Below, piece by piece: positions 7,671 through 31,985 of a stretch of 64,000 nt of DNA. Position 1 is the stretch's first letter. Each line of letters starts with the position of its first letter. Location of the stretch: IMG/VR virus record IMGVR_UViG_2778261161_000002; one strand, given 5' to 3'. This DNA is from a virus (Duplodnaviria; Heunggongvirae; Uroviricota; Caudoviricetes). Below the pieces are notes generated by a model. It was not told the origin of the DNA and did not search any database. It was given only the letters and a program-made list of their open reading frames with translations. A program made the translations under genes and the position numbers.

Positions 7671-8669
7671 ATGCAATCACTGAATACTGTTACGGATCGC
7701 TTCTCCCTGGTAGAGAAAATCCGCAAACACACACCGCAGAACAACCGAAATTATGTCATTCAGTCGGTACGAGACACATTCAACTCGCCAGAAACAAAAG
7801 AGCGTATCGCGCTGGGTGAGATGTATGGTTATTACGGTCATGGTCGCCGGGCGATGCACTATAACAAAACGAAAAGCCTGAACTTGCCGGAAGTCTCTGT
7901 TGTGATGGTAGATGGGAAGCCTGTTGTATTGGAGAACGTGCCGTCAAACAGGACTATCGACATTTCGATTGACGACAACGGCATTGTTACGCATACGCAG
8001 GAAATACTGGATACAGACACCGGGCGTATTGTTCAGGGCATGATTAATTCTGGTGCTGGTGGTTGGTCGTGGGCTACATCTGGTCCAGATTCATCGGTAT
8101 CCCTGGTAAAGTCTTTCCACGGCTTTGATTACGTAACTGTGCCTAACTATATCAGCCTCGACAAGAAAAGCCTGATGCTTGAATCAGCAGAAGAGCGCGA
8201 TGCGGCTATTCATGCAGCACTTATCGAACAAGGTTTTACCGATAACGCTGCTACGGATCTGGTTCACCACTTTTCAGCAATGAAAAATCAGCAAGCCATG
8301 CTCGAATCTGCACATCGTGAAGCCCTGGAATCAGAATTGATGCTCCTTGAAGTGGAAAACATACAGCTTCGAGATAAGCTGCGCGCTCAAACAGCGATGA
8401 TGGAAAGCCAGGGGGAAAATGCAAAGCAATGCCGCCGGATTTTGCGTGACGCTATCCAGGAAATGCCTGTTTTTATCAGCGCAGAACAGCGCCGGGCGCT
8501 CTGCCGTATGCAGTCTGAAGATGATGCCCGCATAGTGGCTGCGATGCTTGAATCTCTTGGGGCAAATGCTACTTATGGCTTACCGGTATCAGGCAAGAAA
8601 GAACCAGAGTTATCACCGAAGGAGAACAAAAACACCACCCCGTTACTCTTCGTTTCTAGAAGGGGGTAA
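7671..8669 (+). CDS. putative head maturation protease / scaffold (Pro-like)
   Basis: 332 aa with C-terminal coiled coil; follows the portal-like gene. Confidence 0.3.
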   Translation: MQSLNTVTDRFSLVEKIRKHTPQNNRNYVIQSVRDTFNSPETKERIALGEMYGYYGHGRRAMHYNKTKSLNLPEVSVVMVDGKPVVLENVPSNRTIDISIDDNGIVTHTQEILDTDTGRIVQGMINSGAGGWSWATSGPDSSVSLVKSFHGFDYVTVPNYISLDKKSLMLESAEERDAAIHAALIEQGFTDNAATDLVHHFSAMKNQQAMLESAHREALESELMLLEVENIQLRDKLRAQTAMMESQGENAKQCRRILRDAIQEMPVFISAEQRRALCRMQSEDDARIVAAMLESLGANATYGLPVSGKKEPELSPKENKNTTPLLFVSRRG

Positions 8670-8675
8670 TCGCCT

Positions 8676-8697
8676 TGTTAAGTTAAATTTCTAACAT
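8676..8697. promoter_or_regulatory. TGTTAAG...TTTCTAACA motif (operator-like site A)
   Basis: member of the dispersed TTTCTAACA/TGTTAGAAA family; upstream of the RepL-like gene. Confidence 0.4.
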
Positions 8698-8782
8698 AGT
8701 GTATTTATATACACTGTTGATCCTGGTGGATGGGATCGAGTAGGATCGCGGTCACTGCTCCGGTAGCGACTGCCAAAAAAGC

Positions 8783-8808
8783 AAAAGCCGCTGAGAAGCG
8801 GCTTTTTG
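8783..8808 (+). terminator. rho-independent terminator
   Basis: GCCGCT-GAGA-AGCGGC followed by TTTTT. Confidence 0.65.
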
Positions 8809-8869
8809 GGTGTATAAATCCACTGCCATAGATTTATACGGTAGATAGATTTTTTCACGGAACTATCTG

Positions 8870-9832
8870 GTGAGTATTTTAAATTCAGTTTCAGTAACTT
8901 TCAACACTTCTGAGTATAAAAACAACACTGAATACCACAAAAAAATCAAAGGTCATCAGTTGAGTTTTTTTGCTCGTCATAGCGGTCTTCTTTCCCCTTC
9001 ACATAGCGCCATTATTGCCGAGTTCGCCAACCTGGCAGGGTCTACCGATGAATACATGATCCGTCGCTCATATGCTGATATGTCCGAGATTACAGGACGC
9101 AGCATTTCTACTGTGCGCCGGGCATTTGCTGAAGCGACGAAGTGCGGAATGCTTGTTAAGCAACATCAGGTAGCGAATAACAATGCCCAGGTGTGTAACG
9201 TATATCGGTTTACGACACAATTTCTCCACTTCATTCATGTAGCAATGGAGATAGGGGGTAAGCAGGGCATCAAATTTGCCAACGCCACAAAGCTGGTTAA
9301 GCAATTGATTTCAAAGGTACGTTATTTTTTTGAAACTGGGAACCCCCTGTTCAAATTGAACAAGTCCCCCCATGTTCAAAATGAACAGCCAATAGAAAAT
9401 AAGAGTCACTCTATAGCCAAAAGAAGAGAAAGATCATGCGCGGTTCAGCCAAAGGCTTCACCAGCAGATAGTACTCAAGCGGATAATGGGGGACTGGATA
9501 AAAAAACAGTAATCAGGGAAGAACATACCAACCACTGCCTGGCGGCGGCAAAAGCGAGAGCTGCAAAGCGTCGTTCAGACGAGGGGCACGCAAAACGGCA
9601 GGCTCTGTATCGTACCGCTGAAAAGCTGGCAAAAAAATTTGCATGGATACGTAGTGCCGCTACCGCAGTGAATAAGCCTAAACAATCCAGTGCCCTGGAT
9701 TTCTCAATGGATTATTCTGGCTCCCAGGGGTGTGTAACCATTGGTGAAGCCTTTGACCTGATGAAACAACGTGGCTATCGGTCTGAATTTGACCGGGAGG
9801 ATTGGTCAATCCCTGCGGGATTTAGGGGATGA
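8870..9832 (+). CDS. putative replication / DNA-binding protein with winged-helix region (RepL-like)
   Basis: 320 aa; HTH-like segment ITGRSISTVRRAFAEATKCGMLVK; preceded by operator-like motif and a GATC cluster. Confidence 0.35.
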   Translation: MSILNSVSVTFNTSEYKNNTEYHKKIKGHQLSFFARHSGLLSPSHSAIIAEFANLAGSTDEYMIRRSYADMSEITGRSISTVRRAFAEATKCGMLVKQHQVANNNAQVCNVYRFTTQFLHFIHVAMEIGGKQGIKFANATKLVKQLISKVRYFFETGNPLFKLNKSPHVQNEQPIENKSHSIAKRRERSCAVQPKASPADSTQADNGGLDKKTVIREEHTNHCLAAAKARAAKRRSDEGHAKRQALYRTAEKLAKKFAWIRSAATAVNKPKQSSALDFSMDYSGSQGCVTIGEAFDLMKQRGYRSEFDREDWSIPAGFRG

Positions 9833-9886
9833 CCTGTGTGTCTACAAAGCATCCCAATGATCGGAAAATGCTCGCTCGATGATTTG

Positions 9887-9916
9887 TGTTAGAAAATTAA
9901 TTTGCTGTTTCTAAAT
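9887..9916. promoter_or_regulatory. paired TGTTAGAAAA / TTTCTAAAT motif (operator-like site B)
   Basis: motif family member ahead of the c4/icd/ant module. Confidence 0.4.
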
Positions 9917-10094
9917 CGGAATGTATGATCTGCATCATCGACTGAAGTCATCCATTGCTGAAATTTTTAGTTGATCTTCCATGTTTTCAGGCTTATATTC
10001 ATGCCGTCGTAGCAAATTCTGCGACCAGGTTTGACAGCCTGAATGTTAGTGCGGACAACCGCAGATTTCCGATATTGCGGTATTTTTGTGTCCG

Positions 10095-10215
10095 TAAACC
10101 GCGTTACGCCCGAATTATGGTGGGGCGTGATGGGGAGGCTTCGGCCTGCTGGTCTCACTAACGCCAGTCTGTCAACCCTGTCACGTCCTGCCACCTGTTT
10201 GACAGCGGGTAGCAG
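10095..10215 (+). ncRNA. c4-like antisense RNA region of an immI-type module
   Basis: GGTCTCACTAACGCC (10151-10165) is complementary to the direct repeats CCTGAATGTTAGTGCGG (10037-) and CCTGTTAGTGAGGCC (10224-); the latter overlaps the icd RBS; exact RNA ends unknown. Confidence 0.4.
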
Positions 10216-10245
10216 GTTGTTAAACCTGTTAGTGAGGCCGTAACT

Positions 10246-10470
10246 ATGGTTAATGCCAATCCTTGCTCACGTCCAGAATTCATCTGGCGTTTCCACTCCC
10301 TGCAAAAACACTGCGATCACTTCGCAATTGCCGCAACCGAAAAAGAAGCCCGTTCTCTGATCCCTGATCAGCATGGTGTTCTTACTGGTCGTTTCTCTAC
10401 TTCCCCACAACCAAACACTAATCCCTGGTATCGCAATATTACCAATCCCGGCATTGCGGAGGCACACTGA
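10246..10470 (+). CDS. icd: Icd-like small protein
   Basis: 74 aa ORF overlapping (ATGA) the antirepressor start; paralogue at 50240..50455. Confidence 0.45.
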   Translation: MVNANPCSRPEFIWRFHSLQKHCDHFAIAATEKEARSLIPDQHGVLTGRFSTSPQPNTNPWYRNITNPGIAEAH

Positions 10471-11177
10471 TGGATATCTGCATTCTTGAAAAGCCATCAA
10501 TGACCAGCATTGAGATCGCGGAGCTGGTGGGAAAACGTCATGACAATGTGAAGCGTACCATTGAAACATTAGCCGAATCCGGCGTTATTGTTCGTCCTCA
10601 AATTGAGGATGAACCAAAAATAGATGTAATGGGGCGTTCTCGATTAATTCAGGTGTTCCGATTTAGCGACGAGCAAGGCAAACGAGACAGTATCATTGTA
10701 GTCGCACAGCTTTGTCCTGAGTTTACTGCCCGGCTGGTGGACCGCTGGCGCGAACTGGAAGAACAAGTACGCCAGCCGTTGACCGAAATAGAGATGATCG
10801 CCGCAATGGCTGCAAATGCAGTTCAGCAGCAAAAGCGGCTTCATGCTGTTGAGTCAAAGGTTAGCCAGGTCGCTGAAACCGTCGAGCAAATCAAGAAGGG
10901 CAATATGCCAGATGGTTACATTGGCTACCGCCAGCTGGCGGCGAAATGCGGCCTGACTGAAGCCAAATGTCGCAACCTTGTCAACGCTTACCGGATTCCC
11001 ACCGATACACATGAGTTTTTAACTCCAGAGGGGGTATTGTCGCGTCGTTCCATCGTGGCCTTATCTCCCTTCATGAATGCTTTTAACCGGATGATGTCGG
11101 AGGCTGAACACCGAGGAAAACGCTGGTATCACCCCAAAATGGGGCAATTCCAGGTGATCGGTTGGGGAGGTGAGTGA
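10470..11177 (+). CDS. ant: Rha-family antirepressor-like regulator
   Basis: 235 aa; N-terminal SIEIAELVGKRHDNVKRTIETL matches the Rha domain signature as recalled; paralogue at 50455..51396. Confidence 0.55.
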   Translation: MDICILEKPSMTSIEIAELVGKRHDNVKRTIETLAESGVIVRPQIEDEPKIDVMGRSRLIQVFRFSDEQGKRDSIIVVAQLCPEFTARLVDRWRELEEQVRQPLTEIEMIAAMAANAVQQQKRLHAVESKVSQVAETVEQIKKGNMPDGYIGYRQLAAKCGLTEAKCRNLVNAYRIPTDTHEFLTPEGVLSRRSIVALSPFMNAFNRMMSEAEHRGKRWYHPKMGQFQVIGWGGE

Positions 11178-20869: not shown

Positions 20870-21982
20870 ATGAGTCAACACACTGATACTTCTAATCTGG
20901 AAATTATCTCGACAGCAATTGAAACGCTGCGCACACAAATCGCTCTTATACAGAAACGGAATCCGGGTGATGACCTGTCAAAGCGACTGCACGAGAGTGT
21001 CATTGCCACTACAGATAACCTGGTGGCGGAAATCAACAAGCTGCTTGATGATGGGGCAGTTGATTACAATAAGCTGGTGGATCAGTTTGAGGAATACCAA
21101 CAAGCTGTTAATGATGGCTTGATCCGTTTTTCACAAGTCACAGGCGTATCAGCGACAGTTGAAAGCCTGGGTGATGCAGTTAATCAATTTGCCGCGAATA
21201 TGCGTAATGAGATCGGCAATCTGGAAGCGCGTCTTGAACAGGCAAATACACTGCGTAAATCTGCCGAAGCCGATTTGAACCGTTACAAAAAAGACTATCC
21301 GCCCAGCCTGACAAAGCGGCTGGATGTTGCGGAGAAGGATAACCGCGCGCTGAAAAGAGAGCGCCGGGAACTAAAAGAGCGTTTAACCAAGCTCAATCAG
21401 CAATGCATTGATTATCAAGGCGAAGGCGTCACACTGCGTAAAAAGTTAGCTACAGCGCAGAGCATTATCGAAACATTAAAGCGAGAGTGCTCACAGCTTG
21501 GTCACGATCTGAACCGTGCTTGTGGCATGGGACAAAGACCAGAGACATTTCCACTCATGTATGATGGGCGGGATGCCATTGCCTACATCCATGAGTATCC
21601 GCACGGCCTGGTTGCGGAAACTGGGCAGCGTGGCGAAGCACTGCTGACGGCTAATTACCATCAACAAATCAGAACCAATCGCCTGTTAACGATGGATGTG
21701 ATCCCATCGGTATGGGGAACGCCGCTTTACTATCGCCTGCCGGGCTTCGAAAAGGACTGGAATACCGACATAGACGAATGTCTCGCAGATAAAATTATGG
21801 CGTACCTGGAGACGGATTTTCCGCGCTTATATCGCCGGATTATGGACTCTAAGGATGCGCCAATCGATGAATTAAAAATGCGTCCGGAGACGCTGGAGGC
21901 AATCAAGCAGACGGAGTTTGATACTGTATTCAGTGTGGCCTGCATTCCAAGCTGTTTCCATGAAAGCATCCCGTTCATGTAA
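20870..21982 (+). CDS. hypothetical coiled-coil protein
   Basis: 370 aa; long N-terminal coiled coil, Cys/His-containing C-terminus. Confidence 0.5.
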   Translation: MSQHTDTSNLEIISTAIETLRTQIALIQKRNPGDDLSKRLHESVIATTDNLVAEINKLLDDGAVDYNKLVDQFEEYQQAVNDGLIRFSQVTGVSATVESLGDAVNQFAANMRNEIGNLEARLEQANTLRKSAEADLNRYKKDYPPSLTKRLDVAEKDNRALKRERRELKERLTKLNQQCIDYQGEGVTLRKKLATAQSIIETLKRECSQLGHDLNRACGMGQRPETFPLMYDGRDAIAYIHEYPHGLVAETGQRGEALLTANYHQQIRTNRLLTMDVIPSVWGTPLYYRLPGFEKDWNTDIDECLADKIMAYLETDFPRLYRRIMDSKDAPIDELKMRPETLEAIKQTEFDTVFSVACIPSCFHESIPFM

Positions 21983-29524: not shown

Positions 29525-30562
29525 TTACCAGAGCTTCGCGGCGTACTGCGTTTGGGGGAATGTGTATCCGTAACGTTCTTCGATTGCTTTGCCGTATTTT
29601 TTACGAGCTTCATTCAGTTTAATGCCGGTCAGGTCGTCTCCAGAGGCCATCATTACGTCTAACAATTCCAGATCCATTTTATCCAGCCTTGCCATTGCTT
29701 CACGTGATGTACGTATCTTACGTTCAATGATATGGCGAATAGCCGGATCGGCATCCTCCAGCATCTTAGCGGATTTCTGCTTAAGGCTTTCATTGCGAAT
29801 ATCGATGTTCCTTAAGATGTACGACTTCGCAACGTAGCTTGGCTGGTGTTTTTCCAGGTCACGAACACGATATAAGTTAAAATCGCCGAGAAGGCTGCAA
29901 GGTACCGATTCGACGCCAGAATAAATTGTAATGCTCCGGCGTTCACCAACATTATTGACAACGGGGATCGTTGTCTTCGGTAGTCTTGCGAAAACCAATG
30001 CGCCATGTGCGCCAACTCTAAAGCGAGAAAGGGCATTGCTGCCTTCGATGTTTGTTGTCAGCACAACATCTGTATATGCCTCTTTACGCGCCCGGTAGAT
30101 CTCGCCTTCAGGCTCAGCTTCAAAGAAGCGCTGTTCTTCTTCAAGAGCACCTACGATTTGAGAAAAAACCCTATTTTTCAGGCTTTTCTTTATGATTTTG
30201 TCGTATTTTTTTAGCAATTGTTCACGTGTAAATGTACGTGTTGTTGTAGCGCTTTGCACAACGACATGCGTGCTTTGATTGGTGTCCTCAATGATGAATG
30301 GGATCGGAGAATATACAGACTCAACAATGTTCGACGCTTTGCCGTCGGCATCGCGGCACATGTCAACGAAGGCTTTCCATTCAGCAAGACATTTTTCAGC
30401 TTCTTCTAATATGTTTTGGTCATGCGTTAATGCAACATGGCGGAATTCCTCGCCAGCATAACTGGTATCATGGAAAACAGAGTTTGCGACCACCAGCTCT
30501 TTCCACCGTTCAGCGGTTTGCAGGAACCGTTTGTACTCTTTCTCGATCGACTTCTTACTCAT
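29525..30562 (-). CDS. hypothetical protein at immunity-region position
   Basis: 345 aa, transcribed from the rox side toward pacB; operator-like motif at its 5-prime end; no recognisable domain. Confidence 0.45.
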   Translation of the reverse strand: MSKKSIEKEYKRFLQTAERWKELVVANSVFHDTSYAGEEFRHVALTHDQNILEEAEKCLAEWKAFVDMCRDADGKASNIVESVYSPIPFIIEDTNQSTHVVVQSATTTRTFTREQLLKKYDKIIKKSLKNRVFSQIVGALEEEQRFFEAEPEGEIYRARKEAYTDVVLTTNIEGSNALSRFRVGAHGALVFARLPKTTIPVVNNVGERRSITIYSGVESVPCSLLGDFNLYRVRDLEKHQPSYVAKSYILRNIDIRNESLKQKSAKMLEDADPAIRHIIERKIRTSREAMARLDKMDLELLDVMMASGDDLTGIKLNEARKKYGKAIEERYGYTFPQTQYAAKLW

Positions 30563-30577
30563 TATTCCTACTCGATT

Positions 30578-30598
30578 TAGTTTTCTAACATAAAATTA
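30578..30598. promoter_or_regulatory. TTTTCTAACATAAAAT motif (operator-like site I)
   Basis: reads TGTTAGAAAACTAA on the minus strand about 20 nt before the 29525..30562 start; TTTTAGAAAA at 30664. Confidence 0.4.
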
Positions 30599-30771
30599 CT
30601 ATGACAAATTTATGTCGAATAACAGAGTGAGTAAAGGATCGAACTGTGATTTTTTGTCATCAATTTTAGAAAACCAACCGTAGAAACCACACTTCGCAAA
30701 TTAAAGACCATGAAGGCAACGTGTTACTGGTCATCATCAATCTATGATGGATTTAAAAAAATCGGCATTTT

Positions 30772-30956: not shown

Positions 30957-31985
30957 ATGAGTGAATTAATTATCTCTGGCAGTTCCGGTGGTTTTCTGCG
31001 CAACATTGGCAAAGAGTACCAGGAAGCCGCAGAAAACTTTATGCGGTTCATGAATGACCAGGGGGCTTATGCGCCGAATACTCTGCGCGACCTCCGGTTG
31101 GTGTTTCATTCCTGGGCGCGCTGGTGTCACGCTCGCCAGCTTGCCTGGTTTCCGATCTCACCAGAAATGGCCCGCGAGTATTTTCTTCAGCTGCATGATG
31201 CCGATCTGGCTTCGACCACCATTGATAAGCACTACGCCATGCTGAACATGCTGCTTTCGCATTGTGGCCTTCCGCCACTTTCGGATGATAAAAGTGTTTC
31301 TCTGGCTATGCGGCGCATCCGGCGCGAAGCGGCAACTGAAAAAGGCGAACGAACAGGCCAGGCTATACCGCTTCGGTGGGACGATCTGAAACTGCTCGAC
31401 GTCCTGTTGTCCAGGTCAGAACGGCTGGTGGACCTGCGCAACCTGGCTTTTCTCTTTGTTGCATACAATACGCTGATGCGTATGTCGGAAATATCGCGTA
31501 TTCGTGTAGGTGATCTGGACCAAACAGGTGACACTGTCACGCTACATATTTCACACACGAAGACAATAACGACCGCCGCCGGGCTTGATAAGGTGCTTTC
31601 CCGTCGCACTACCGCTGTGCTGAATGACTGGCTGGATGTTTCCGGGCTTCGCGAGCATCCTGACGCTGTGCTGTTCCCGCCGATACACCGTAGCAATAAG
31701 GCCAGGATCACGATAACGCCCCTTACTGCACCTGCAATGGAGAAAATATTCAGCGACGCCTGGGTGTTGCTGAATAAAAGAGATGCTACGCCAAACAAAG
31801 GAAGATACCGGACGTGGACCGGGCATAGTGCACGCGTCGGGGCCGCTATTGATATGGCTGAAAAGCAGGTGTCTATGGTGGAGATCATGCAGGAAGGAAC
31901 CTGGAAGAAACCGGAAACACTTATGCGGTATCTTCGCCGTGGCGGCGTGTCTGTGGGGGCTAATAGCCGCCTGATGGATTTGTAA
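30957..31985 (+). CDS. dre: Cre-family tyrosine recombinase (Dre-like)
   Basis: 342 aa; colinear with P1 Cre (WFP..PE, NLAFL..AYNTL.R..EI.RIRV.D, HSARVGAA.DMA); rox site 150 bp upstream. Confidence 0.9.
   Translation: MSELIISGSSGGFLRNIGKEYQEAAENFMRFMNDQGAYAPNTLRDLRLVFHSWARWCHARQLAWFPISPEMAREYFLQLHDADLASTTIDKHYAMLNMLLSHCGLPPLSDDKSVSLAMRRIRREAATEKGERTGQAIPLRWDDLKLLDVLLSRSERLVDLRNLAFLFVAYNTLMRMSEISRIRVGDLDQTGDTVTLHISHTKTITTAAGLDKVLSRRTTAVLNDWLDVSGLREHPDAVLFPPIHRSNKARITITPLTAPAMEKIFSDAWVLLNKRDATPNKGRYRTWTGHSARVGAAIDMAEKQVSMVEIMQEGTWKKPETLMRYLRRGGVSVGANSRLMDL

What the first reader, a model, noticed from the sequence alone, without database searches (positions are those of the whole stretch)
8700..8869. 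GATC cluster and inverted repeats upstream of the RepL-like gene
Three GATC sites lie within 35 bp (TGATCC, GGATCG, GGATCG), flanked by TGTATTTATATACA, TATAAATC/GATTTATA and AGATAG/CTATCT inverted repeats, directly downstream of an operator-like motif. Dam-site clusters with AT-rich repeats are typical of replication origins and SeqA-controlled promoters; this may be the control region of a lytic replicon.
Basis: inference. Interest (0 to 1): 0.35.

Follow-up and report, generated by a model that had tools for sequence, protein, structure and literature searches.

The report
Control region of a phage lytic replicon
The GATC cluster and inverted repeats are most likely the on/off switch for the lytic replication gene repL of a D6-like (P1-related) phage-plasmid, not a replication origin; it is a rearranged version of the well-studied phage P1 switch, so it is useful but fairly ordinary.

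Summary
The window is a D6-like phage-plasmid, and 8670-8869 is the gap between the head protease gene pro and a full-length P1 RepL homologue.

Across four lineages (RepL down to 32% identical) only a few islands are conserved:
- A recurring motif that I read as the C1 repressor operator, at 8678-8700.
- A candidate sigma-70 promoter, TTGATC-18-TAGGAT(C) at 8717-8746. Its hexamers are invariant and its 18-nt spacer is variable. GATC sites overlap both hexamers, and the one in the -10 is present in 34 of 34 loci.
- A two-way terminator at 8783-8806 that is T-richer leftward.
- A leftward promoter inside the first codons of repL (8904-8876), the best sigma-70 match in the whole window. It should give a ~92-nt antisense RNA covering the repL ribosome site.

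Two of the listed inverted repeats are hairpins of that RNA. The GATC triple is not significant by count alone (P about 0.5 for 64 kb).

P1 has the same parts at its kilA-repL replicon, but here there is no kilA, the terminator lies between promoter and gene, and the operator sits upstream of the -35. There are no DnaA boxes or iterons. The likely origin is a pair of palindromes inside repL (9343-9387).

All functions are inferred; nothing was measured. Verdict: partly supported, a new variant of a known kind, with modest interest.

The parts
8678..8700 (+). C1-repressor-type operator (core TTTCTAACA at 8688-8696). By position it is the counterpart of P1 Op53/OrepL, but it lies about 55-75 bp upstream of the predicted transcription start.
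   Evidence: It belongs to a family of about 14 sites in the window. A matrix trained without this site scores it 23.8 bits, against 20.8-31.9 for the other top-scoring sites and 17.7 or less for background. Other copies sit where P1 has C1 operators: upstream of the c4 RNA, the ref homologue, and the c1-like/cre-like pair. TTCTAA is invariant in four lineages.
8698..8715 (.). Palindrome AGTGTAT-N4-ATACACT, AT-rich, directly upstream of the -35. It may be an UP-like element or the site of an unknown dimeric regulator.
   Evidence: unique in the window. It is a 9+9 palindrome in the E. fergusonii clade. Only the right arm, CACTG, is kept in the distant lineages L091/L092/L094.
8717..8746 (+). 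Predicted sense promoter of the lytic replicon: -35 TTGATC (8717-8722), an 18-nt spacer, and -10 TAGGAT (8741-8746). The predicted start is about 8753-8754. GATC sites at 8719, 8734 and 8744 overlap the -35, the spacer and the -10.
   Evidence: In the nine-sequence alignment of four lineages, the -35 is invariant at 5 of 6 positions and the -10 at 6 of 6, but the spacer at only 3 of 18. Spacer length is 18 in the eight lineage representatives checked, and all 34 loci match the core pattern, which allows 17-19 nt. It ranks among the top 27 of 639,720 candidate sites in the window with a simple sigma-70 matrix. It is the only conserved rightward promoter upstream of repL in the distant lineages.
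8747..8782 (+). Short, poorly conserved leader between the sense promoter and the terminator.
   Evidence: Only 5 of 31 columns are invariant. It has no complementarity elsewhere in the window beyond chance.
8775..8811 (.). Two-way intrinsic terminator: stem 8783-8792 with 8797-8806, an A-run on the left and a T-run on the right. It looks efficient leftward and leaky rightward.
   Evidence: The stem is conserved in all lineages, with a compensatory C-G to T-A change in L092/L094. Of the 12 nt after the stem, 9-11 are T on the minus strand and 4-8 on the plus strand. P1's equivalent terminator shows the same asymmetry, 11 against 4.
8806..8834 (+). Possible second sense promoter downstream of the terminator: TTGGGT-17-TAGATT.
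   Evidence: It ranks among the top 64 sites in the window. It is kept as TTGAGG-18-TAGATT in the E. fergusonii clade, but the distant lineages have no equivalent.
8812..8839 (-). Hairpin B of the antisense RNA and of the complementary repL leader: GTATAAATC / GATTTATAC, reaching 12 bp with G-U pairs on the minus strand.
   Evidence: Two base pairs changed on both sides between the D6 and E. fergusonii clades, and 97% of cells are paired. The loop is hypervariable within the D6 clade.
8843..8868 (-). Hairpin A (AGATAG / CTATCT, 14-nt loop). It covers the ribosome-binding region of repL.
   Evidence: It is specific to the D6 clade; the E. fergusonii clade has a 43-nt insertion with other hairpins at this place.
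8876..8904 (-). Antisense promoter: TTGAAA (8904-8899), 17 nt, TAAAAT (8881-8876), inside codons 3-12 of repL. It is the counterpart of P1 P53as/PaskilA.
   Evidence: It matches 10 of 12 consensus positions and is the best sigma-70 score in the whole window on both strands. It is identical in the E. fergusonii clade. The distant lineages carry a different strong leftward promoter, TTGCGC (TTGCGT in L091)-16-TGgTATAAT. The same matrix ranks the experimentally known P1 P53as first in P1.
8775..8869 (-). Predicted antisense RNA of about 92 nt: hairpin A, hairpin B and the terminator. It is complementary to the repL 5' untranslated region, including the ribosome site, and reaches the start codon.
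   Evidence: The fold gives -31 kcal/mol with z = -5.5. Analogous predicted RNAs in E. fergusonii and L092, and the known P1 P53as RNA, fold with z from -4.7 to -5.7.
8870..9832 (+). repL, the lytic replication initiator. The start codon is GTG here and ATG at the same position in several relatives.
   Evidence: The D6 record annotates it as 'lytic replication protein'.
9343..9387 (.). Tandem palindromes CCCCCTGTTCAAATTGAACA / CCCCATGTTCAAAATGAACA inside repL. They are candidate RepL binding sites and the core of the lytic origin.
   Evidence: The same position holds lineage-specific tandem palindromes in the E. fergusonii plasmid, L091 and L092. P1 oriL lies inside repL (PMC9948254; P1 annotation).

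Best explanation
The 200-bp gap between pro and repL is the transcriptional and antisense control region of the lytic replicon of a D6-like phage-plasmid.

Shown by sequence and comparison:
- The gene downstream is a RepL homologue.
- The gap contains a member of the phage's recurrent operator motif.
- It contains a conserved promoter-like pair of hexamers, TTGATC-18-TAGGAT(C), with GATC sites in both.
- It contains a conserved two-way terminator.
- A very strong leftward promoter lies in the first codons of repL.

Inferred mechanism:
1. In the lysogen, the C1 repressor bound at 8678-8700 keeps the sense promoter down. The few transcripts that start mostly stop at the terminator.
2. A constitutive antisense RNA of about 92 nt (8869 to about 8775) pairs with the repL leader and ribosome site. 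Convergent transcription from its promoter also interferes with sense transcription. RepL is therefore not made.
3. After C1 is inactivated, the sense promoter fires and reads through the rightward-leaky terminator. It runs across the antisense promoter, RepL is made, and RepL acts on an origin inside its own gene.
4. Dam methylation of the GATC sites in the -35 and -10 hexamers probably modulates promoter strength, for example by differing between fully methylated and newly replicated hemimethylated DNA. The direction of that effect is unknown.
For: - Identity: 96% identical to phage D6 and present on 118 plasmids. RepL is homologous to P1 RepL over its full length.
- Operator: with copies at places homologous to P1 operators.
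- Sense promoter: islands of invariance separated by a variable 18-nt spacer, in four lineages with RepL down to 32-36% identity. It is the only conserved rightward promoter upstream of repL in the distant lineages.
- Terminator: conserved with a compensatory change, and T-richer leftward in every lineage and in P1.
- Antisense promoter: top score of the whole window, conserved or functionally replaced in all lineages. The scoring method recovers the known P1 P53as promoter.
- Antisense RNA: strongly structured, with double changes in hairpin B.
- P1 precedent, from the P1 GenBank annotation: three Dam sites at the -35 of P53, C1 operator Op53, and the antisense promoter P53as with a mapped start 20 nt into kilA. 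Heinrich et al. [quoted passage not shown] Its findings are quoted from my own knowledge, because the paper could not be opened.
Against: - Nothing is measured: no transcript ends, no C1 binding and no Dam dependence.
- The operator lies upstream of the -35 rather than over the promoter as in P1, so how C1 would repress from there is unclear.
- A terminator between promoter and gene means the model needs read-through, which is only inferred from the short T-tract.
- The sense promoter is a modest match (4 of 6 plus 4 of 6, with an 18-nt spacer).
- Covariation in hairpin B rests on a single evolutionary event.
- GATC number is not conserved; the S. dysenteriae lineage keeps only one.
- A second candidate promoter downstream of the terminator exists in two clades.
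Confidence: 0.6

Rival explanations
1. The region is itself a replication origin, or a SeqA-sequestered origin flank. The GATC cluster and AT-rich inverted repeats would be the sites where replication starts.
For: There are three GATC sites in 29 bp, and an AT-rich stretch at 8800-8950 with GC of 0.29-0.36. P1's plasmid origin oriR is Dam-dependent (my own knowledge).
Against: - The window's only exact DnaA box (21127-21135) lies far outside the region, and the region has no iterons.
- The conserved pieces have the anatomy of promoters and a terminator.
- Only one GATC is positionally conserved.
- P1 oriL lies inside repL (PMC9948254).
- All lineages carry tandem palindromes inside repL instead.
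Confidence: 0.05
2. The rightward promoter and the terminator define a short, stand-alone, C1-controlled RNA of about 55-60 nt. repL would be transcribed only from the second promoter downstream of the terminator (TTGGGT-17-TAGATT, 8806-8834), held in check by the antisense RNA.
For: The terminator follows the -10 by only 40-61 nt in every lineage. The plus-strand segment folds well, z = -5.6. The second promoter is conserved in the D6 and E. fergusonii clades.
Against: - The RNA body is not conserved, with 5 of 31 columns invariant.
- It has no complementary target in the window beyond chance.
- Much of the good fold comes from sequence upstream of the predicted start.
- The distant lineages have no second promoter, so repL there has no other conserved source of transcription.
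- The plus-strand T-tract is short.
Confidence: 0.15
3. This is an ordinary operon boundary. The terminator simply ends the late prt-pro transcript, the GATC triple is chance, and the other repeats have no role beyond a plain repL promoter.
For: The terminator lies 114 nt after the pro stop codon. The GATC triple is not significant in a 64-kb scan.
Against: - The pro 3' flank itself is not conserved (1 of 14 columns), whereas the operator core, both hexamers and the terminator are.
- The leftward promoter is the best in the window, and the terminator is built mainly for the leftward direction.
- The same layout exists in P1, where it is experimentally characterised.
Confidence: 0.15

Closest known systems
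Phage P1 lytic replicon control region (Op53-P53 / P53as, kilA-repL)
   Same: - Homologous RepL initiator.
- A C1-type operator at the replicon's promoter.
- A cluster of three GATC (Dam) sites at the promoter.
- A weak sense promoter opposed by a strong antisense promoter in the first codons of the first gene.
- An antisense RNA that ends at a two-way terminator which is T-richer leftward.
- An origin expected inside repL (PMC9948254).
   Different: - There is no kilA gene, so the antisense promoter sits in repL itself.
- The terminator lies between the sense promoter and repL rather than upstream of the promoter. The antisense RNA (about 92 nt against 180 nt in P1) therefore does not cross the sense promoter.
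- The operator lies upstream of the -35 instead of over the -10.
- GATC sites sit in both hexamers rather than at and upstream of the -35.
- The operator sequence differs (TTTTCTAACA against TGCTCTAATA).
- The replicon follows pro instead of the immI region.
- There is no detectable nucleotide homology between the two control regions.
Escherichia phage D6 (MF356679) and D6-like plasmid prophages
   Same: The region is 96% identical over 8500-9900, with the same gene order ddrB, prt, pro, repL, c4/icd/ant, lyz, darB.
   Different: Within the 9.4-kb stretch examined, the D6 record annotates only coding genes, and RefSeq E. coli plasmids annotate nothing under the 200 bp. The D6 genome paper (Gilcrease and Casjens 2018) could not be read, so I cannot say whether it discusses these elements.
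Countertranscript control of plasmid rep genes (for example R1 CopA/CopT)
   Same: A short, constitutive, stem-loop-rich antisense RNA is complementary to the leader and ribosome site of a replication initiator gene. Its stems are conserved and one loop is variable. The comparison with R1 rests on my own knowledge.
   Different: Here the system gates a phage lytic replicon that is normally silent, rather than setting steady-state copy number. No leader peptide or kissing-loop motif was identified. No homology is claimed.
Dam-sensitive promoters with GATC in a hexamer (P1 cre promoter, IS10 transposase promoter)
   Same: GATC overlaps the -35 and the -10. The P1 record annotates Dam sites in the cre and kilA promoters. 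The IS10 precedent is from my own knowledge.
   Different: The effect of methylation here is untested. The -35 GATC is lost in several relatives (TTGATT) without loss of the promoter.

Membership tests
P1-type lytic replicon control region | A RepL-family initiator gene lies immediately downstream. | tested here: met
   28% identity and E 5e-30 over the full length, including the C-terminal IPAGFRG. Relatives carry PF26868 Phage_P1_RepL.
P1-type lytic replicon control region | A C1 repressor operator is associated with the promoter. | tested here: inconclusive
   A family member of the recurrent motif is present, and a C1 homologue is encoded at 29525-30562. However, the site lies upstream of the -35 rather than over the -10, and binding cannot be tested here.
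P1-type lytic replicon control region | A sigma-70 promoter is directed towards repL. | tested here: met
   This is met at the sequence level only. TTGATC-18-TAGGAT has conserved hexamers and a spacer of fixed length but variable sequence in four lineages.
P1-type lytic replicon control region | Dam (GATC) sites lie in the promoter. | tested here: met
   GATC sites at 8719 (-35), 8734 (spacer) and 8744 (-10). The -10 site is present in 34 of 34 loci. P1 has three at its -35.
P1-type lytic replicon control region | An antisense promoter lies in the 5' end of the first gene, with an antisense RNA ending at a two-way terminator. | tested here: met
   This is met at the sequence level only.
P1-type lytic replicon control region | A kilA gene lies between the promoter and repL. 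| tested here: not met
   repL starts 124 nt after the -10, and no open reading frame lies between them.
P1-type lytic replicon control region | The antisense transcript crosses the sense promoter, with the terminator upstream of that promoter. | tested here: not met
   The terminator at 8783-8806 lies downstream of the sense promoter at 8717-8746.
Replication origin of the Dam/SeqA-controlled type (oriC or P1 oriR-like) | DnaA boxes. | tested here: not met
   The whole window has only one exact TTWTNCACA, at 21127.
Replication origin of the Dam/SeqA-controlled type (oriC or P1 oriR-like) | Iterated initiator-binding repeats (iterons). | tested here: not met
   Region 8600-8950 contains only two-copy short repeats. 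Tandem palindromes lie inside repL instead.
Replication origin of the Dam/SeqA-controlled type (oriC or P1 oriR-like) | A GATC cluster significantly above background. | tested here: inconclusive
   P is about 0.53 for the 64-kb scan. In a 90-bp frame fixed on the promoter, P is 0.004, and the enrichment recurs in most lineages but not all.
Replication origin of the Dam/SeqA-controlled type (oriC or P1 oriR-like) | The fragment supports RepL-dependent replication. | not testable with these tools
   This needs cloning and a replication assay.
Known RNA families (Rfam 15) | A match of either strand of 8670-8869 to a curated RNA family. | tested here: not met
   A permissive scan of 8300-10600 found only the C4 RNA, its a1/b1 targets, an isrK-like match and a weak chance-level match to 5.8S rRNA (E 0.36), all at 9906-10198.

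The most novel reading that the evidence does not exclude
D6-like phage-plasmids may gate lytic replication with a three-layer lock that differs in layout from P1:
- a repressor- and Dam-sensitive promoter whose two hexamers each contain a methylation site;
- an intrinsic terminator placed between promoter and gene, acting as a leaky attenuator;
- a short antisense RNA.

The hypervariable loop of that RNA and the hypervariable promoter spacer would then be specificity determinants. They would let co-resident D6-like elements control their lytic replicons independently, as a form of incompatibility or superinfection specificity for a lytic replicon.
Probability: 0.2. Interest if true: 0.5.

Novelty: new variant of a known kind. 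Interest (0 to 1): 0.3.

Why it matters
D6-like phage-plasmids occur on plasmids of about 2% of complete E. coli genomes (97 of 5,426), and also in Salmonella and Shigella. Their switch from plasmid maintenance to lytic replication decides whether they stay as plasmids or kill the host. A mapped promoter, operator, terminator and antisense layout gives concrete targets: the TAGGATC -10, the TAAAAT antisense -10 and the terminator. These can be used to test how leak-proof silencing of a lethal replication initiator is achieved. They also allow a test of whether Dam methylation couples that silencing to replication. RepL cassettes are used as copy-number amplifiers in synthetic biology (PMC9948254), so a compact native control module from a second RepL lineage could be practically useful. 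Conceptually it adds a rearranged example to a known P1 theme rather than a new principle.

Tried and rejected
- P1 C1 operator consensus ATTGCTCTAATAAATTT: no match in the window with up to 3 mismatches. The phage uses a related but distinct motif.
- P1-type late promoter (palindrome AAGTGACTT at -22 plus a -10): P1's six annotated late promoters were aligned with this region, and no equivalent box lies at the right distance from any -10.
- Rfam: no family matches either strand of 8670-8869.
- Hairpin formed by the GATC sites themselves (8719-8747): it arises from the self-complementary GATC plus neighbouring bases, it lies upstream of the predicted start, and it is lost in distant lineages. 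It is not treated as a functional RNA element.
- Protein coding: the 55-aa minus-strand ORF 8691-8858 spans the terminator and is broken by a 43-nt insertion in the E. fergusonii clade.
- Trans target for the short plus-strand leader: only chance-level complementarity in the window.
- Complementarity between the two hypervariable patches (promoter spacer and hairpin-B loop): inspected by eye on the variants, and not consistent.
- Searches for relatives: the genome-contig scan with a RepL alignment returned only two P1-like loci. Intermediate relatives came from the protein search and contig look-ups instead.
- Papers: the P1 genome paper, the D6 genome paper and Heinrich et al. 1995 could not be opened. 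P1 facts are therefore taken from the annotated GenBank record and from PMC9948254.
- LexA: the palindrome matches the LexA-box consensus (quoted from my own knowledge) at 13 of 16 positions by eye, but has G/C instead of C/G at the outer critical positions. It was not scored formally, and the judgement rests on my own knowledge.
Full report
**What the window is**

Positions 8500-9900 are 96% identical to Escherichia phage D6 and 90-100% identical to about 110 plasmids of E. coli, Salmonella and Shigella. The D6 record gives the local gene order as ddrB-like, portal (prt), head protease (pro, 7671-8669 here), 'lytic replication protein, similar to P1 repL' (8870-9832), icd, anti-repressor, a peptidoglycan hydrolase on the other strand, and darB. 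The 320-aa product aligns end to end with P1 RepL at 28% identity and E 5e-30, including the C-terminal IPAGFRG. Rfam finds the C4 antisense RNA and its a1/b1 targets just to the right, at 9993-10198. The finding therefore lies in the 200-bp gap between pro and repL of a D6-like phage-plasmid. The 200 bp occur on plasmids of 97 of 5,426 complete E. coli genomes, never on a chromosome, and carry no annotation.

**Checking the observation**

All listed elements are present at the stated places:
- GATC sites at 8719, 8734 and 8744.
- The palindrome around TGTATTTATATACA.
- The pair TATAAATC/GATTTATA.
- The pair AGATAG/CTATCT.

The GATC triple is the tightest in the window. Even so, with 225 sites in 64 kb, a triple within 29 bp somewhere is expected about half the time (P about 0.53). 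Counting alone does not make it special. One is an intrinsic terminator with a 10-bp stem at 8783-8806, flanked by an A-run and a T-run. The other is a leftward sigma-70 promoter, TTGAAA-17-TAAAAT, at 8904-8876.

**Comparative anatomy**

I collected 34 loci that share this region:
- D6 itself, plasmids from E. coli, E. marmotae, E. fergusonii and S. dysenteriae, and viral contigs.
- Three distant groups whose RepL is only 32-36% identical: a JGI metagenome contig, Enterobacter hormaechei contigs, and ENA/Logan contigs.

The examined loci, including all the distant ones, keep the order prt, pro, gap, repL, hydrolase, darB. Aligning the gap across the four lineages shows sharp islands of invariance in otherwise diverged sequence.

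| Segment | Window coordinates | Invariant columns |
|---|---|---|
| Flank after the pro stop | 8672-8685 | 1 of 14 |
| Operator core TTTCTAACA | 8688-8696 | 5 of 9 |
| ATACACTG | 8709-8716 | 7 of 8 |
| -35 TTGATC | 8717-8722 | 5 of 6 |
| Spacer | 8723-8740 | 3 of 18 |
| -10 TAGGAT | 8741-8746 | 6 of 6 |
| C that completes the GATC | 8747 | 1 of 1 |
| Leader | 8748-8778 | 5 of 31 |
| Terminator stem, each arm | 8783-8792, 8797-8806 | 8 of 10 |
| Terminator loop | 8793-8796 | 0 of 4 |

The spacer is 18 nt in all eight lineage representatives checked, and all 34 loci match the core pattern, which allows 17-19 nt. The terminator stem carries a compensatory C-G to T-A change in one lineage. Two invariant hexamers at a fixed distance across a free-running spacer are the signature of a promoter. 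With a simple sigma-70 matrix (my own approximate frequencies), TTGATC-18-TAGGAT ranks among the top 27 of about 640,000 candidate positions in the window.

**The operator**

The motif just upstream, AAATTTCTAACATAG, belongs to a family of about 14 sites in the window with consensus AAATTAGTTTTCTAACAYA. A matrix trained without this copy scores it 23.8 bits. That is inside the 20.8-31.9 range of the other top-scoring sites and above the background maximum of 17.7. Other copies lie where P1 has C1 operators:
- upstream of c4 (9883-9905);
- upstream of a Ref-family nuclease gene (48850);
- between a cre-like integrase gene (30957) and a 345-aa gene (29525-30562, minus strand) whose product is a distant C1 homologue (E 2e-8).

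The core resembles the P1 operator (TTTTCTAACA against TGCTCTAATA), although the P1 consensus itself is absent from the window. I therefore read 8678-8700 as the C1 operator of this replicon. Actual binding is an inference.

**The GATC sites**

They fall in the -35 (8719), the spacer (8734) and the -10 (8744, TAGGATC). The -10 site is present in all 34 loci. The -35 site is present in most, but reads TTGATT in the S. dysenteriae, L021 and Enterobacter groups. The spacer site is specific to the D6 clade. The other lineages have their own extra GATC sites at different positions. This gives 3-4 sites within a 90-bp frame in three of the four lineages (Poisson P 0.003-0.02 each), while E. fergusonii has two and S. 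dysenteriae one. The annotated P1 genome marks three 'Dam methylation sites within the regulatory region of kilA' at and just upstream of the -35 of P53, the promoter of the kilA-repL replicon. So a GATC-rich promoter is a recurrent, though not strict, property of RepL replicons. What methylation does to this promoter is unknown.

**The right half: an antisense RNA**

The leftward promoter at 8904-8876 is the single best sigma-70 match in the whole window on either strand. It is identical in the E. fergusonii clade even though the spacer and the encoded amino acids differ. In the three distant groups it is replaced by another strong leftward promoter with an extended -10, TTGCGC (TTGCGT in L091)-16-TGgTATAAT. 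That promoter lies about 60-90 nt upstream of the repL start codon in the Enterobacter and ENA/Logan contigs and overlaps the annotated start in the JGI contig.

As a control, the same matrix was applied to P1. It ranks the experimentally mapped antisense promoter P53as first and the known sense promoter P53 low.

From a start at about 8868-8871, the RNA would run to the terminator, giving about 92 nt. It folds into two stem-loops plus the terminator, at -31 kcal/mol and z = -5.5. The equivalent predicted RNAs of E. fergusonii (142 nt) and Enterobacter (193 nt), and the known 180-nt P1 RNA, fold comparably, with z from -4.7 to -5.7.

Hairpin B keeps 97% of its pairs across nine distinct sequences, with two pairs changed on both sides between clades. 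That amounts to one evolutionary event, so the covariation evidence is weak. Within the D6 clade its loop is the most variable spot of the RNA.

The terminator is built mainly for this direction. Of the 12 nt after the stem, 9-11 are T on the minus strand against 4-8 on the plus strand in every lineage, as in P1 (11 against 4).

**How repL is probably transcribed**

In the D6 and E. fergusonii clades a second rightward candidate promoter lies just after the terminator: TTGGGT-17-TAGATT at 8806-8834. The distant lineages have no conserved rightward promoter between the terminator and repL. The operator-linked promoter upstream of the terminator is therefore the only conserved source of repL transcription. 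This implies read-through of a terminator whose rightward T-tract is short. That step is an inference.

**Proposed mechanism, with steps marked**

- Shown: the gene is a RepL homologue. The sequence elements exist and are conserved as described.
- Inferred from the P1 precedent and from the anatomy:
  1. In the lysogen, C1 at 8678-8700 limits the sense promoter.
  2. Residual transcripts mostly stop at the terminator.
  3. A constitutive antisense RNA covers the ribosome site and start of repL, and its strong promoter opposes incoming polymerases.
  4. On de-repression, sense transcription reads through, crosses the antisense promoter, and RepL is made.
  5. Dam methylation of the hexamer GATC sites modulates the sense promoter.

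For P1, my own knowledge of Heinrich et al. 1995 (listed in PMC9948254; the paper itself could not be opened) is as follows. P53as makes a constitutive 180-base antisense RNA, P53 and P53as inhibit each other, and a P53as-down mutation increases repL transcription and replication.

**Why it is not an origin**

The window's only exact DnaA box (21127-21135) lies far from the region, and the region has no iterons. Its conserved parts are accounted for as operator, promoter, terminator and antisense promoter. In P1 the lytic origin lies inside repL, and an AT-rich segment in the second half of the gene is needed for RepL-driven replication (PMC9948254; P1 annotation). Here, and at the same relative position in every lineage, repL contains a tandem pair of palindromes. 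In the window they lie at 9343-9362 and 9368-9387. Their sequence is lineage-specific, and in the two distant groups examined (the JGI and Enterobacter contigs) they are rich in TGATCA. That is the better origin candidate.

**Comparison with what is known**

The closest system is the P1 Op53-P53/P53as control region.

Shared features:
- a RepL initiator;
- a C1-type operator;
- GATC sites at the promoter;
- a weak sense promoter against a strong antisense promoter in the first codons of the first gene;
- a leftward-biased two-way terminator;
- an origin expected inside repL.

Differences:
- There is no kilA.
- The terminator lies between the sense promoter and the gene, so the antisense RNA does not cross the sense promoter.
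- The operator lies upstream of the -35 instead of over the -10.
- GATC sites sit in both hexamers.
- The operator sequence is different.
- The genomic neighbourhood is different.

Two P1-defining features were tested and not met. I therefore file this as a new variant of a known kind rather than a plain member. Whether the D6 genome paper already describes any of this could not be checked. The database records do not annotate it.

**Unexplained**

- The palindrome at 8698-8715 is conserved as a 9+9 repeat in two clades but not in the distant ones. It sits where an UP element or an activator site would be, and it resembles a LexA box with symmetric changes at the critical outer bases. Its binder is unknown.
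- It is unclear how an operator 55-75 bp upstream of the start would repress.
- It is unclear why the promoter spacer and the hairpin-B loop are the two hypervariable patches of an otherwise about 98% identical clade.

**Verdict**

The biology is a rearranged version of a classic P1 circuit, so interest is modest.

Noticed in passing
window 9343-9387 (also L002 3383-3430, L091 3005-3057, L092 2932-2976): Tandem palindromes lie inside repL, at the same relative position in every lineage but with lineage-specific sequence. They read TGTTCAAAWTGAACA in the window and are TGATCA-rich, with four GATC sites, in the distant lineages. They are candidate RepL binding sites and the core of the lytic origin.
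   Followed up: partly
window 9883-9999: The immunity (c4) region to the right of repL also has GATC sites in promoter hexamers. TTGCTG-16-TATGAT(C) at 9902-9929 is overlapped by an operator copy at 9883-9905 (minus strand), and TTGATC-17-TATATT lies at 9971-9999.
   Followed up: partly
window 8698-8715: By eye, the palindrome GTGTATTTATATACAC matches the LexA-box pattern (CTGT-N8-ACAG, consensus from my own knowledge) at 13 of 16 positions. It has symmetric C-to-G and G-to-C changes at the outer critical bases. It is conserved only in the D6 and E. fergusonii clades, and its binding protein is unknown.
   Followed up: partly
window 8723-8733 and 8821-8828: These are the two hypervariable patches within the otherwise roughly 98% identical D6 clade: the spacer of the sense promoter and the loop of antisense hairpin B. 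No consistent complementarity between them was seen.
   Followed up: partly
window 29525-30562 (minus strand), 30572-30594, 30664-30672: A 345-aa protein with no Pfam match is a distant homologue of the P1 C1 repressor (21% identity, E 2e-8). It lies next to a cre-like integrase gene (30957-31985), with operator-motif copies between them, as in the P1 c1/lox-cre arrangement.
   Followed up: partly
window 10006-10087: A sub-threshold Rfam match to isrK (43.5 bits against a cut-off of 50) overlaps the C4 target region a1/b1. It probably reflects the known relatedness of immI-type regions rather than a separate RNA.
   Followed up: no
L002 and L003 (E. fergusonii and S. dysenteriae plasmids), L091-L095: In these relatives repL is followed directly by the hydrolase gene. 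The c4-icd-ant immunity module found next to repL in D6 and in the window is not at this position. In S. dysenteriae, repL is annotated as two fragments, so it is probably disrupted.
   Followed up: no
window 8691-8858 (minus strand): A 55-aa ORF spans the whole control region, including the terminator. A 43-nt insertion breaks its frame in the E. fergusonii clade, so it is very unlikely to be a gene.
   Followed up: yes
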